The notes beneath the pieces are model-generated. The model saw only the letters and a program-made list of their open reading frames with translations, had not been told where the DNA came from and searched no databases. A program made the translations under genes and the position numbers. Shown piece by piece: positions 21,625 through 25,242 of a stretch of 64,000 nucleotides of DNA (position 1 is the stretch's first letter; every line of letters starts with the position of its first letter). The DNA comes from Escherichia coli (GTDB taxonomy: Bacteria > Pseudomonadota > Gammaproteobacteria > Enterobacterales > Enterobacteriaceae): assembly GCF_011045215.1 (NCBI RefSeq), contig NZ_CP049201.1, one strand, 5' to 3'.

Positions 21625-22134
21625 TTATCCTGCGCCCAGGACTGTCACTGTCAGCGTGACCAGCCAGACCCAGAAGTAAGCCGGTTTCTGTCCGAGGGCT
21701 TTTGCCCGACGCCACAGATAAAACGGAACCAGCCAGGCCAGCCAGCCAAAGGCGGCGGTATCAACGCCGGATTTACGGAGCCGTCGTTCATCCAGATACC
21801 CCAGCGCAATATTCAGTATCAGTGTGATAAACCAGTATTGCCCCTCCGTCACGGCGGCATACGCCTCTTCAAATTCCATTCCGCTCAGCCCGGCCGTCCA
21901 CATCTCCAAGGCATACCCAATCAGGGGCGCAAAGGCCAGCGTCCAGACCACGCTTCCGGGGATACGATTGCCGGGCAGCGCGGGGGGAACCGCACATTGT
22001 TTCAGGACATCTGCCAGCAGCGTGGCTGACAGCGGCTGCCATTCCGTTAGCGGACGTTGAAGGAGCATACCGGAGTACAACAAACAATGGTTAGTGAAGC
22101 CATTGCTATTCAGAATTACTTTATACTCATGCAT
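21625..22134 (-). CDS. Integral membrane protein (169 aa)
   Basis: Several hydrophobic helices (WTLAFAPLIGYALEMW, WFITLILNIALGYL, FGWLAWLVPFYLW, FWVWLVTLTVTVLGAG). Confidence 0.5.
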   Translation of the reverse strand: MHEYKVILNSNGFTNHCLLYSGMLLQRPLTEWQPLSATLLADVLKQCAVPPALPGNRIPGSVVWTLAFAPLIGYALEMWTAGLSGMEFEEAYAAVTEGQYWFITLILNIALGYLDERRLRKSGVDTAAFGWLAWLVPFYLWRRAKALGQKPAYFWVWLVTLTVTVLGAG

Positions 22135-22700
22135 TTTTCCCTGAACATTTGGCCCATCAGCGAACCGGCACTCCGGAGTTCGTTGATCTCATTATTGAAA
22201 TCAAAGCCGCCTTCCGATGGGTGGGCCCGGCGTTCGACAGGAACCTTACTGGTACGCATCCCCGTAACCACAATATGCTGCAGCGTTACTTTTTCCAGTA
22301 CCTGTGCTTCATCAGGCAGAAGATAAGGGAGTAAACCAAACACTTTATGTTCCAGCTCTATTTGTTCTTCTTCTATTTTTTCATCAGAAACCCGCTTTGC
22401 AGGCATTTCCCCTCCATAATTTAGATCAGCTAGAGTCACTGTGTTGGGGTACCCCCTGTCAGCACGGAAAACAATCTCAGTTGCAAGAGAAGCACTTTGC
22501 TCAAGCTTCGTACAGTGCAACTCAGTCGCACGCCGTCTGGCATCTGCAAGTCGATTGTCCTCAGTTTCCTGCTTTTTTACGTCAAGCATGAAGAATGCAG
22601 ACAAAACGTTACCTAGCCCAGTAGCTATAGTTATCAATAAGGTAAATATTACTCCCTGAAGAAGCTTTTTCTTCGAAAATTCCTCAGTCATATTATGCAT
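22116..22700 (-). CDS. Membrane-anchored protein (194 aa) with one N-terminal transmembrane helix
   Basis: TM segment LLQGVIFTLLITIATGLGNVLSAFFML followed by a charged soluble domain; its 3' end overlaps the downstream membrane-protein gene by 19 nt. Confidence 0.45.
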   Translation of the reverse strand: MHNMTEEFSKKKLLQGVIFTLLITIATGLGNVLSAFFMLDVKKQETEDNRLADARRRATELHCTKLEQSASLATEIVFRADRGYPNTVTLADLNYGGEMPAKRVSDEKIEEEQIELEHKVFGLLPYLLPDEAQVLEKVTLQHIVVTGMRTSKVPVERRAHPSEGGFDFNNEINELRSAGSLMGQMFREKCMSIK

Positions 22701-23017
22701 TCCTTTATCTGATTTGATTTATCAACTAAACCGCACGCTTCTCGCTCACAGCGGACCTTTAGCTCGTTCGCTTCGTGCCAGAAACCTTGGCAAAGCCATG
22801 GCTGATGTTATTCAGCTCCAGAAATTGGCTGCGTATAACAGCCCGCTTGCCGTTTGGCTTTTCAGGGCGATTTCAGTAATTGTAACTGCTGCGATGTTCC
22901 CCGAACACGTGGCAGAGTGTGACCACAGGATACTGCGCTTTGAGTTTCCCGATTAATGAGAATTGTTCGGGGAGTCTGGCATCAGGATCGTGGCAGCCTT
23001 CCTGAGAAACTCCCGGT

Positions 23018-24376
23018 TCAAACACATAATTTAGGATCCTGCTGGAGAGAGTAACCCAGTGATTTTGCTCTTCGCTTAAGCCCATCGAGTACGCGACTAC
23101 GGTAGCGTTCTTCATAATAATCTGCGCCAGGATCGGCATATTTTTGACCATACTTCAGGGCATTGTAGAACAGTATTGCCAGTTTTCTTGCTGTTGCAGT
23201 GACTGCTTATGCTTTCCCGATACGTGATGATAATCGACGATAAAAAGCACCCAACGCGGTATCGCTCCGGCCAATTGTTGTAGCTGCCAGCCTGAGTGCC
23301 GCAGCAATTCGACTGGATGAACGCCGTGTTTTCGAGGACAGCACTTTTCCACCGGAGATCTTATTTCCCGGGGACAAACATAGCCACGAGGTAAAATGGC
23401 TCGCATCCGGCCAGCGGTTCATGTCAGTACCGCATTCTGCAATGAATTTTAGTGCCATATAAGGTCCGAACCCATGTATCTGTGTCAGATCTGCCCCCGT
23501 AATTTTCCAGAGTAATGGTCTGACATCAAAGGAAAGCTGATTGGGTTGCTTTGTACGATGTCTGGCGGAGGGCAATACCCCTTCCGGCTCTTCAATTCCG
23601 GTACTGAGCTGCAATAATGAGGTTTCGATTTGAGCATCACATTCGCGGATCTTTTCCTGGTAAAAATCGAAAAATGCAACCGACTGTTCAAGTGCAAAAA
23701 GATGCTCAGGCTGCCAGTTTCCTGTCAGTGCCTGCCGAAGTACTTCTGGCGTCTTTTTACATCTCACATCACGATACTGGATCAACATTGAAGGATCGCG
23801 CTCACCACTGACGATAGCTCTGACGATTGAAAGACCGGTAACGCCAGTGATATCCGATACTGCATGATGTAGTTGCACATTCATCTGCATCAGCGCCTTC
23901 TGCATATGTTGAATATGCGCAGCCCGGTATTCAGTCAGGCGTTCCCGTTGCCTCAGATAAGACCTGAGTACAGAAATATCGTGTTCAGGTCTGAAACTGG
24001 CACGGAGAAGACCAAATGAATGCAACTTCTGCAACCACTGGGCATCGTTGACATCGGTCTTGTGACCGGGAATATTTTTTGCGTCTCTTGCATTAACTAG
24101 GATCACCTTGAAACCAGCTGCTTCAAGGATTTCAAAAGCAGGCAACCAGTAAACGCCGGTAGACTCCATGGCAATGGTCGTAATGTGACAGGTTTTGAGC
24201 CAGTCAGACATCCGCTGAAGATCGCCAGTAAAACTTTGAAAAGTCCTGACAGGCCCGGTGTCAGCATCAGGCGGTACGGCGACAACGTGGAACTCAGCGC
24301 CAATATCAACGCCCGCAGCATGAGGATGGACAATAGACATTCGGGAGGATTTTTTCATGGAAATTTCCTTGCTCAT
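23018..24376 (-). mobile_element. IS110-family transposase gene (about 452 codons) interrupted by an in-frame TAA at 23207..23209; the uninterrupted ORF is 23207..24376
   Basis: Translation shows IS110-type features: VDIGAEFHVVAV near the N-terminus and ...HFTSWLCLSPGNKISGGKVLSSKTRRSSSRIAAALRLAATTIGRSDTALGAFYRRLSSRIGKA, then a stop, then in the same frame AVTATARKLAILFYNALKYGQKY... continuing to 23018. Element boundaries not determined. Confidence 0.7.
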
Positions 24377-25242
24377 TTTCGATGAACGAAGGAGGGGACG
24401 ACGGAGAAATTACCTTCCTGAACGGGATCAAAGTCACCACTGTCGGATCCGCCACAGTCCCTGAACCATGTTTTTTTACGGGGTCATACCACCAAAAGGC
24501 CGACGGCTGCTTCCTTCGCTAAATTATCCTGCCAACTTTTCCGGGGAGTTTCTGAGATTCAGGACGGGGTTTCATCCATGGACAGTTTTTTAATATTTCT
24601 ATTTCAATATGTTGTGGTTTTTTCTTAAGCTCGCGTATTTCGAACTGTTCCGGGTTATGGGGGAGACTTTTGGCATTTTTCCTGTCGTTCATTTCGCAAC
24701 TGCTTTACCCATCGCGTCATGGTAGAAAGACCAACATCCATAGCACTGACCGCAGCCGCAACGGTGTATAGTTCTGGTCAATGACCAGTTGAGCGGATTC
24801 GCGTTTAAACTCTAAGCTGAAATTTCTTCTTTTCATTGAGACATCTGTATCGTTCTGAGGTGAGCATATCACTTCTATGCAGTTGGCCAAATTCAGTGTA
24901 CCACCGCAGATTAATTGATTGTTTTTAAAGTTTTTTAAGGGAAATGCATCCTTTATTCAGTAATGAATTGCTGATTCAGAACAAAGTGAGCATTTTATAA
25001 GTAAGTGATAACTTGACATCATAGTCAGTTAACAAATCGATTTAACCTAAGGCAAACCTGTCAGTAGTTATTGTTCTGTTTCGATTTTTATTAAATTTAC
25101 GATCAGGAAATAACCAAGAGGCTAAAAGTAATAATATCAATACTATCCAACCGATACTTTTTCCTGATTGTATGTCCATTTAGAATACAACTTCGCAATA
25201 TAATGCTAATAGCTTTTCTGCCATGGATGATTGGCCAGATAG

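What the first reader, a model, noticed from the sequence alone, without database searches (positions are those of the whole stretch)
23018..24376. IS110-family transposase gene carries a single in-frame TAA stop
The transposase ORF ends at ...RIGKA with TAA at 23207..23209, but the same frame continues as AVTATARKLAILFYNALKYGQKY... to 23018, reconstituting a typical full-length IS110-family C-terminus. This is a nonsense mutation rather than a frameshift, so the element is probably immobilised, unless the stop is a sequencing error.
Basis: seen in the sequence. Interest (0 to 1): 0.35.

Follow-up and report, generated by a model that had tools for sequence, protein, structure and literature searches.

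The report
Nonsense-mutated IS110 element inside IS911
A mobile element of the RNA-guided IS110 family, nested inside an older dead IS3-family element, has had its recombinase gene cut short by a genuine, recent AAA-to-TAA mutation; this is ordinary decay of a mobile element, although its whole clade turns out to insert specifically at the frameshift site of IS3-family elements.

Summary
The minus-strand recombinase ORF ends at TAA 23209..23207, and the same frame runs on to TGA 23020..23018.

Intact E. coli copies and all 29 aligned relatives have Lys (AAA) at this codon, residue 384 of 446. The change is therefore a single A-to-T nonsense mutation.

It is not an assembly error. The same TAA is found in E. 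coli PapRG-06-5, which differs from the window at 3 of 3152 bases, and in a separate short-read assembly.

All catalytic residues lie before the stop. The lost 63 residues hold 24 more invariant residues and two predicted helices of the Tnp domain, so the recombinase is very probably dead. dN/dS is about 0.05 on both sides of the stop, so the mutation is recent.

The element spans 24585..22999 and is the only copy in the window. It has a 209-nt left end that encodes a bridge-RNA-like structure supported by covariation. It sits in the A6G frameshift site of a decayed IS911-like element.

Side finding: 28 of 37 distinct insertion sites of this clade, from many bacterial phyla, lie at the same IS3-family frameshift site. 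I found no description of this in the searched literature.

The finding itself is ordinary.

The parts
22999..24585 (-). Whole IS110-family element, about 1585 bp plus the AA core dinucleotide at 23000..22999, which is ambiguous with the A-run on the left flank
   Evidence: The joined flanks recreate GAAATATTAAAAAA|GGCTGCC, the uninterrupted site of an intact IS911-like element. The same element ends are seen in 40+ related loci.
23207..23209 (-). Premature TAA stop, codon 384 in 446-aa numbering. The wild type is AAA (Lys); the mutated base is at 23209
   Evidence: Lys384 is invariant in the 30-sequence alignment.
23207..24358 (-). Truncated recombinase ORF of 383 aa (alternative start at ATG 24376 gives 389 aa). 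It retains the DEDD residues D18, E65, D102, D105 and Ser335-Gly336
   Evidence: It is identical to RefSeq WP_250846162.1.
23018..23206 (-). In-frame remainder of the gene after the stop: 62 codons plus TGA. It encodes the conserved C-terminus ('AVTATARKLA...YYEERYR...')
   Evidence: dN/dS is 0.049 against the intact copy. The AlphaFold model places helices 383-406 and 410-433 here.
24062..24064 (-). Codon 99 is CAC (His) where all 29 relatives have Arg, in the PGRKTD motif just before catalytic D102. This is a possible second lesion
24359..24585 (-). Non-coding left end (209 nt down to ATG 24376), which encodes the bridge-RNA-like structure
24464..24508 (-). Module 1, a target-binding-loop-like stem, internal loop and hairpin. 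The 5' side GCCUUUU (24500..24494) is complementary to target AAAAGGC. The 3' side UAAAAAAA (24478..24471) is identical to the left target plus core
   Evidence: Helices 1 and 2 are 99% paired with compensatory changes.
24395..24461 (-). Module 2, donor-binding-loop-like. The 3' side UCAGGAAGG (24421..24413) is identical to the right end, plus core, plus the first 2 nt of the right target. A candidate right-donor guide GACAGU lies at 24444..24439 and is weakly supported
   Evidence: RE position -6 matches column 195 with identity 1.0 and covariation; RT+1 matches column 201 at 0.76.
24411..24411 (-). G-to-A change in the module 2 loop at a position that is G in 33 of 33 relatives. This is a possible lesion of the RNA
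   Evidence: shared with PapRG-06-5
24544..24553 (-). Left arm (AGAAACTCCC) of a 10-bp inverted repeat between the left end and the right end
   Evidence: It covaries with the right arm in 34 loci (RE -13 and -14 against columns 45 and 46, 97% complementary).
23005..23014 (-). Right arm (GGGAGTTTCT) of that inverted repeat, followed by CAGG and the AA core
24586..24908 (-). Left part of the host IS3-family (IS911-like) element: the left terminus and a frameshifted orfA that ends in the A6 run of the slippery site
22705..22998 (-). Right part of the host IS3-family element: the start of orfB, with an internal stop, truncated after about 290 bp

Best explanation
The locus holds one copy of an IS110-family, bridge-RNA-guided insertion sequence. 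It lies in the A AAA AAG programmed-frameshift site of an IS911-like IS3-family element that has itself decayed. In the lineage of this strain, a single A-to-T transversion changed the invariant Lys384 codon (AAA) of the recombinase gene to TAA.

Translation therefore stops 63 residues early. The product keeps the RuvC-like DEDD domain, the coiled coil and the catalytic Ser-Gly loop. It lacks the last two conserved helices of the Tnp domain and C-terminal extension.

The element most probably can no longer excise or insert, because no other copy is available to supply recombinase in trans. This last step is inferred, not shown.

The mutation is recent: the codons after the stop still carry the signature of strong purifying selection. 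Two further lineage-specific changes at clade-invariant positions may be additional hits: R99H in the protein and G-to-A at 24411 in the RNA.
For: Sequence and frame.

Wild-type codon: it is AAA in the intact copy of E. coli KFu019 (WP_172809872.1, 446 aa) and in the CFSAN061772 copy, and TAA only in the window and PapRG-06-5.

Reality of the stop: it is present in PapRG-06-5 (3 differences in 3152 nt) and in the Logan assembly of SRR11014969, which is identical to the window. The exact truncated protein is on 3 contigs.

Conservation of what is lost: the full-length protein is about 445-457 aa across thousands of homologues. K384 and 24 residues after it are invariant in 30 sequences.

Catalytic residues: D18, E65, D102, D105 and S335 are intact and lie upstream of the stop.

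Structure: the lost region aligns with IS621 residues about 295-317, inside its Tnp domain (residues 189-326) (PMC11208158). In the AlphaFold model it forms helices 383-406 and 410-433. The best fold matches are the IS621 and ISCro4 recombinases.

Timing: dN/dS is 0.055 before the stop and 0.049 after it, with dS 0.34.

Copy number: one copy in the window and in the PapRG-06-5 genome.

Element anatomy: the ends, target and RNA rest.
Against: No experiment shows that the 383-aa product is inactive, since all catalytic residues are retained. No raw reads were inspected directly. SRR11014969 may be the read set from which the window's own genome was assembled, so only PapRG-06-5 is clearly independent. 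I could not rule out an ochre suppressor in the host. Which of the three candidate lesions came first is unknown.
Confidence: 0.88

Rival explanations
1. The TAA is a sequencing or assembly error and the gene is really intact.
For: A single-base substitution is the kind of error that can occur.
Against: The same TAA is in the independently sequenced complete genome of PapRG-06-5, which differs from the window at 3 of 3152 nearby bases. It is also in a Logan short-read assembly.
Confidence: 0.02
2. The stop is programmed (readthrough or recoding), or the truncated protein is a selected regulatory or inhibitor form of the recombinase, as truncated transposases are in some other IS families.
For: All catalytic residues lie upstream of the stop. 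The downstream frame is still open and well conserved.
Against: The stop is not conserved: 29 of 29 relatives and all other E. coli copies examined have Lys at this codon. The allele is confined to one narrow lineage; only 1 of 553 matching genomes is >=99% identical. UAA followed by G is an efficient terminator in E. coli (general knowledge). The open downstream frame is explained by the recency of the mutation.
Confidence: 0.04
3. The element was already immobile before the stop arose, for example through R99H or the G-to-A change in the RNA, so the nonsense mutation is a consequence of lost constraint rather than the inactivating event.
For: R99H replaces an Arg found in 29 of 29 relatives. 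G24411A replaces a G found in 33 of 33 relatives. E35G and V96I also fall at highly conserved positions. Other E. coli copies at the same nested site carry several frameshifts, which shows that decay in place is common.
Against: Overall dN/dS of about 0.05 leaves little room for a long period of neutral decay. The effect of R99H and of the RNA change is unknown, and IS621 has Asn at the position aligned with R99.
Confidence: 0.25

Closest known systems
IS621 (E. coli, IS110 group): bridge-RNA-guided recombinase, PDB 8WT6-8WT9 (PMC11208160, PMC11208158)
   Same: It shares the RuvC-like DEDD domain, coiled coil and Tnp domain with a catalytic Ser-Gly. It has a long non-coding left end upstream of the gene that folds into two pseudo-symmetric stem and internal-loop modules. 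One side of each loop is identical to the top strand of the left partner plus core, and the other is complementary to the top strand of the core plus right partner. A core dinucleotide is present at both junctions.
   Different: The protein is 446 aa against 326 aa and about 20% identical, with a longer coiled-coil region and a C-terminal extension. The core is AA, not CT. In both modules the R-type guide precedes the L-type guide, whereas IS621 has LTG before RTG and LDG before RDG. A 10-bp covarying inverted repeat links the left and right ends, against a 2-3 bp STIR reported for the IS110 group. No sigma-70-like promoter was evident at the linear element or at the RE-LE junction (inspection). 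The target is an IS3 frameshift site, not a REP sequence.
ISEc21 (IS110 family, seekRNA; Siddiquee et al. 2024, PMC11187229)
   Same: It is an IS110-type element with an upstream non-coding region, and its natural target is a conserved coding sequence inside IS3-family elements.
   Different: [quoted passage not shown] This clade (about 450 aa) targets the A6G slippery site at the orfA/orfB junction. In ISEc21 the order of strand matches is bottom-strand match first; here the top-strand complement comes first.
IS1111 group (e.g. ISEc11, IS4321/IS5075, ISPa11)
   Same: [quoted passage not shown]
   Different: In IS1111 elements the non-coding region and RNA lie downstream of the gene in a long right end. 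Here the right end is only about 20 bp and the RNA is upstream. The left arm of the repeat lies 32 nt inside the element.
Intact allele of the same element (E. coli KFu019, WP_172809872.1; also found in Salmonella and Citrobacter)
   Same: It occupies the same nested position in an IS911-like element and has the same ends and RNA. It is 92.6% identical in DNA and 96% in protein.
   Different: It has AAA at codon 384, Arg99 and G at the RNA position equivalent to 24411. It lies in a different genomic island.

Membership tests
IS110 family (DEDD / bridge-RNA recombinases) | N-terminal RuvC-like DEDD domain (Pfam PF01548) with the four acidic residues | tested here: met
   PF01548 scores E=4.6e-20. 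D18, E65, D102 and D105 are invariant in the alignment and present in the window copy.
IS110 family (DEDD / bridge-RNA recombinases) | C-terminal Tnp domain (PF02371) with a conserved catalytic Ser-Gly | tested here: met
   PF02371 scores E=3.6e-13. S335-G336-G337 are invariant. The domain is truncated after residue 383 in the window.
IS110 family (DEDD / bridge-RNA recombinases) | Fold similar to solved bridge recombinases | tested here: met
   Foldseek top hits are IS621 8WT6/8WT9 (E=7e-9) and ISCro4 9T56. phmmer against PDB finds IS621 only. The model is of moderate quality (pLDDT 74.5).
IS110 family (DEDD / bridge-RNA recombinases) | Structured non-coding RNA in a long non-coding end, with two internal loops | tested here: met
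   A consensus structure of 24 pairs holds in 34 sequences: 97.5% of cells are paired against 37-55% when the partners are slid, 68 cells show compensatory change, and 0 of 500 shuffles reach this. No Rfam family matches.
IS110 family (DEDD / bridge-RNA recombinases) | Loop sequences match target and donor on both strands, including a shared core dinucleotide | tested here: met
   The L-type target guide, R-type target guide and L-type donor guide are found, and the donor guide covaries with the right end. The right-donor guide is not resolved.
IS110 group sensu IS621 (as opposed to the IS1111 group) | Long LE with RNA upstream, short RE, only a 2-3 bp STIR, and L guide before R guide | tested here: inconclusive
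   The long LE, short RE and upstream RNA are met. The short STIR is not met, because a 10-bp covarying LE/RE repeat is present. The guide order is R before L, which is not met.
IS1111 group | Bridge/seek RNA in a long right end downstream of the gene | tested here: not met
   Only about 20 bp lie between the TGA and the element end, and the RNA is upstream.
Autonomous (active) insertion sequence | Uninterrupted full-length recombinase gene | tested here: not met
   TAA falls at codon 384 of 446.
Programmed stop-codon readthrough / recoding | The stop codon at the site is conserved among homologues | tested here: not met
   Lys occurs there in 29 of 29 relatives, and AAA in the other E. coli copies.
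IS3 family (host element, IS911-like) | orfA (HTH), an A6G slippery site and orfB (rve) in the -1 frame | tested here: met
   The flanks are 87% identical to an intact E. coli IS3-family element annotated with a programmed frameshift, whose only A6G is the insertion point. In the window orfA is frameshifted and orfB truncated.

The most novel reading that the evidence does not exclude
The window's element belongs to a widespread clade of about 450-aa IS110-family recombinases that specialise in one target. Their bridge RNA directs them, always in the same orientation, into the A AAA AAG -1 frameshift site ('ERDILKK|AAAYFAKE') of IS3-family elements. Insertion there splits orfA from orfB and so disables the host IS. 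The RNA layout differs from IS621: the R guide precedes the L guide in both loops, and a 10-bp covarying inverted repeat links the left and right ends. Targeting of IS3 elements by an IS110-type element is known for ISEc21, but at a different site. I found no description of this clade, target or layout in the searched literature.
Probability: 0.4. Interest if true: 0.55.

Novelty: new member of a known kind. Interest (0 to 1): 0.25.

Why it matters
The flagged feature matters only for annotation. The gene should be marked as a pseudogene, where RefSeq currently gives a 383-aa 'IS110 family transposase', and the element as a non-autonomous relic.

The wider context is more useful. It gives bridge-recombinase researchers a natural family with a conserved, well-defined target (the IS3 slippery site), an AA core and a different guide order. 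It is also an example of one insertion sequence systematically parasitising and inactivating another.

Tried and rejected
Rfam scan of 22500..25000 at E<=1 returned no match, so the RNA could not be assigned to a curated family.

The sigma-70 and terminator scan found nothing convincing on the minus strand. By eye, the RE-LE junction gives TTGAAC-17-CTGTCC, a poor -10 element. The promoter of the RNA and gene is therefore unresolved. Read-through from the host IS3 promoter is only a guess.

The right-donor guide could not be settled. GACAGU matches the window's left-end start, but the equivalent columns do not track the left-end start in relatives, and mutual information with left-end start positions was weak.

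A first mutual-information run was dominated by gappy columns and was discarded.

Literature searches for a prior description of IS110 insertion at IS3 frameshift sites found only the ISEc21 precedent. The library lacks most subscription journals and ISfinder/TnPedia, so absence is weak evidence.

The ISfinder name of the element could not be determined with these tools.

The left junctions of 10 of the fetched loci could not be located by my A-run rule (mutated A-runs, truncated or rearranged flanks), and they were left out. The 37-site statistic is therefore conditioned on an A5-6 run at the junction.

Full report
**1. Observation**

On the minus strand an ORF runs from ATG 24376 to codon ...RIGKA, followed by TAA at 23209..23207. 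The start may instead be ATG 24358, which has an AAGGA box 7-8 nt upstream and is the start RefSeq uses. The same frame continues for 62 codons (AVTATARKLAILFYNALKYGQKY...LCV) to TGA 23020..23018.

**2. What the stop replaces**

The window is E. coli. Its closest complete genome is strain PapRG-06-5, at 99.7% identity over 24 kb. A megablast of the element found it in 553 E. coli genomes, full-length in 73, and nearly always as one copy per genome.

I aligned the window with PapRG-06-5, KFu019 and CFSAN061772. The annotated intact 446-aa copy (KFu019, WP_172809872.1) and the CFSAN061772 copy read GCA AAA GCA. The window and PapRG-06-5 read GCA TAA GCA. There is no indel between the window and the intact copy within the gene. 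The lesion is therefore a single A-to-T transversion, Lys384 to stop.

**3. Is it real?**

- PapRG-06-5 carries the same TAA and differs from the window at 3 of 3152 surrounding bases.
- A Logan short-read assembly (SRR11014969) is identical to the window.
- The exact 383-aa product (WP_250846162.1) is on record on three contigs.

A sequencing artefact is therefore very unlikely. One caveat applies: SRR11014969 may be this isolate's own read set.

**4. What is lost**

The protein has Pfam DEDD_Tnp_IS110 and Transposase_20 domains. Its only solved sequence relative is the IS621 bridge recombinase. An AlphaFold model (pLDDT 74.5) best matches IS621 and ISCro4 synaptic-complex chains.

Homologues number in the thousands and are consistently about 445-457 aa. 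In a 30-sequence alignment reaching down to 64% identity:

- The catalytic residues D18, E65, D102, D105 and S335-G336 are invariant and lie before the stop.
- K384 itself is invariant.
- 24 of the residues after it are also invariant: A385, T387, A388, A390, R391, K392... Y414, Y415, E416, R418 ....

The lost segment aligns with IS621 residues about 295-317, inside its seven-helix Tnp domain (residues 189-326; PMC11208158). In the model it forms helices 383-406 and 410-433. Loss of function is therefore very likely, but this is inferred and not tested.

**5. Age of the mutation**

Against the intact KFu019 copy, dS is 0.34 and dN/dS is 0.054 overall. dN/dS is 0.055 before the stop and 0.049 for the 62 codons after it. 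The post-stop codons thus show no relaxation, so the stop is young relative to the divergence of these copies.

The lineage also carries:

- R99H, where 29 of 29 relatives have Arg, next to catalytic D102.
- E35G and V96I at highly conserved positions.
- A G-to-A change at 24411 in the non-coding RNA, where 33 of 33 relatives have G.

These may be additional hits, and their order is unknown. Other E. coli copies at the same nested site have independent frameshifts. The protein cluster also holds many truncated forms. Decay in place is evidently common.

**6. Anatomy of the element**

The flanks are the two halves of an IS3-family, IS911-like element. On the left is a frameshifted orfA (about 24908..24586). 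On the right is a truncated orfB (22998..about 22705).

Joining the flanks gives GAAATATTAAAAAA|GGCTGCC. An intact E. coli relative, which RefSeq annotates with a programmed frameshift, has GAAATATTAAAAAAGGCTACC as its only A6G. The element therefore spans 24585..23001 plus an AA core, and lies in the slippery heptamer of the host IS, in the same orientation as its genes.

The layout is:

- A 209-nt non-coding left end.
- The recombinase gene.
- Only about 20 bp after the TGA.

Left-end positions 33-42 (AGAAACTCCC) are the inverted complement of GGGAGTTTCT at the right end.

**7. The RNA**

I aligned 34 left ends from relatives fetched from public genomes. They fold into two similar modules, each made of an outer stem, an internal loop and a UGGUGR...YCCCG hairpin.

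The structure has 24 pairs. In the window's register, 97.5% of cells are paired, against 37-55% when the partners are slid. There are 68 compensatory cells, against 7-20 when slid, and 0 of 500 shuffles reach these values.

*Module 1 (window 24508..24464)*

- The 5' loop side, GCCUUUU, is complementary to the target AAAAGGC.
- The 3' side, UAAAAAAA, is identical to the left target plus core.

*Module 2 (window 24461..24395)*

- The 3' side, UCAGGAAGG, equals the right end, plus core, plus two target bases.
- This side covaries with the right end: C/T, G and A variants track perfectly at RE position -6.
- Its next base tracks the first base of the right target in 76% of sequences.

[quoted passage not shown] The order within each loop, however, is R then L. 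That is the opposite of IS621 and matches what is reported for IS1111-type seekRNAs.

The left-end/right-end inverted repeat also covaries, at 97% complementarity at two variable positions. The IS110 group is reported to have only 2-3 bp STIRs. Rfam has no match. I could not identify the right-donor guide or a promoter.

**8. Clade-wide target (side finding)**

I could define 37 distinct insertion sites of this clade. They come from Enterobacteriaceae, Burkholderiaceae, Pseudomonas, Rhodobacterales, Acetobacteraceae, Acidobacteria, Paracaedibacter and others.

The junction is ...Y-T-A6 | element | R-G-C.... Of the 37 sites, 28 have IS3-family OrfA to the left and/or OrfB to the right: 17 have both, 9 the left only and 2 the right only. 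The site is thus 'ERDILKK|AAAYFAKE', the IS3 frameshift window.

Two caveats apply. My junction finder required an A5-6 run, and 10 loci with unclear left junctions were excluded.

ISEc21 is a published precedent for an IS110-type element that targets IS3 elements, but at the DDE codons of orfB (PMC11187229). I found no description of slippery-site targeting. The searched library is incomplete.

**9. Verdict**

The flagged feature is a genuine, recent, lineage-specific nonsense mutation in the recombinase gene of a single-copy IS110-family element nested in a dead IS911-like element.

What is less ordinary is the family to which the element belongs: its conserved IS3 frameshift-site target, its AA core, its reversed guide order and its long covarying end repeat.

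Noticed in passing
window 24586|24585 and 22999|22998; loci L004-L088: Relatives of this element (65-87% aa identity, many phyla) are nearly always inserted at ...YTAAAAAA|...|RGC.... This is the A AAA AAG -1 frameshift site between orfA and orfB of IS3-family elements, and the insertions share the orientation of the IS3 genes. 28 of 37 distinct sites are of this kind.
   Followed up: yes
window 24395..24508 (alignment A3): In both bridge-RNA-like modules, the guide complementary to the top strand (R type) lies 5' of the guide identical to the top strand (L type). This is the reverse of IS621 and resembles IS1111 seekRNAs, although the RNA is upstream of the gene.
   Followed up: partly
window 24544..24553 and 23005..23014: A 10-bp inverted repeat links the left and right ends (AGAAACTCCC / GGGAGTTTCT) and covaries across 34 loci. 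Whether it acts in DNA (STIR-like), as an extra RNA-DNA guide, or as an RNA stem in a junction-spanning transcript is unexplained.
   Followed up: partly
window 24411 and 24062..24064: Two further lineage-specific changes fall at clade-invariant positions: G-to-A in the donor-loop region of the RNA (G in 33 of 33 relatives), and R99H next to catalytic D102 (Arg in 29 of 29 relatives).
   Followed up: partly
L001, L002, L003 (E. coli PapRG-06-5, KFu019, CFSAN061772): The same IS911::IS110 nested composite sits in three different genomic islands: next to an EAL-domain gene and autotransporter; next to integrases and a group II intron; and next to nanX/nanY and queD/dpdE. Flank and insert have diverged together (dS 0.34 between two copies). 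It was not resolved whether the composite moved as a unit or the site was hit repeatedly.
   Followed up: partly
L003 (CFSAN061772 type, 88.9% identity; many E. coli genomes): This allele of the element carries several 1-nt deletions and is annotated as two separate CDSs. It represents decay independent of the window's nonsense mutation.
   Followed up: partly
L020-L023, L032 (Cupriavidus necator UYPR2.512 plasmids): At least five copies of a relative are inserted at a repeated non-IS3 sequence (GGTAACTAAAAAA|CCGTTTGTGCT). This suggests a second repeated target that shares only the CTAAAAAA half.
   Followed up: no
L004 (Logan SRR14360283, 87% aa identity): The closest non-E. coli-type relative sits at TTTCTAAAAAA|GTGTAATG, near an H-NS gene and not in an IS3 element. 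Its right-target guide matches the flank only partly, so this looks like an off-target insertion.
   Followed up: no
window 24586..24908 and 22705..22998: The host IS911-like element is itself a relic. Its orfA has at least two frameshifts, and its orfB has an internal stop and is cut off after about 290 bp, where a 194-aa hypothetical ORF (22116..22700) begins.
   Followed up: partly
many relatives, e.g. L005, L010-L014: In most relatives the recombinase ORF runs to a TAG formed by the element's last bases (...GGA GTT TCT TAG GAA), so the protein ends in '-GVS'. In the E. coli lineage the TAG is CAG, and the ORF stops 15-18 nt earlier at a TGA.
   Followed up: no
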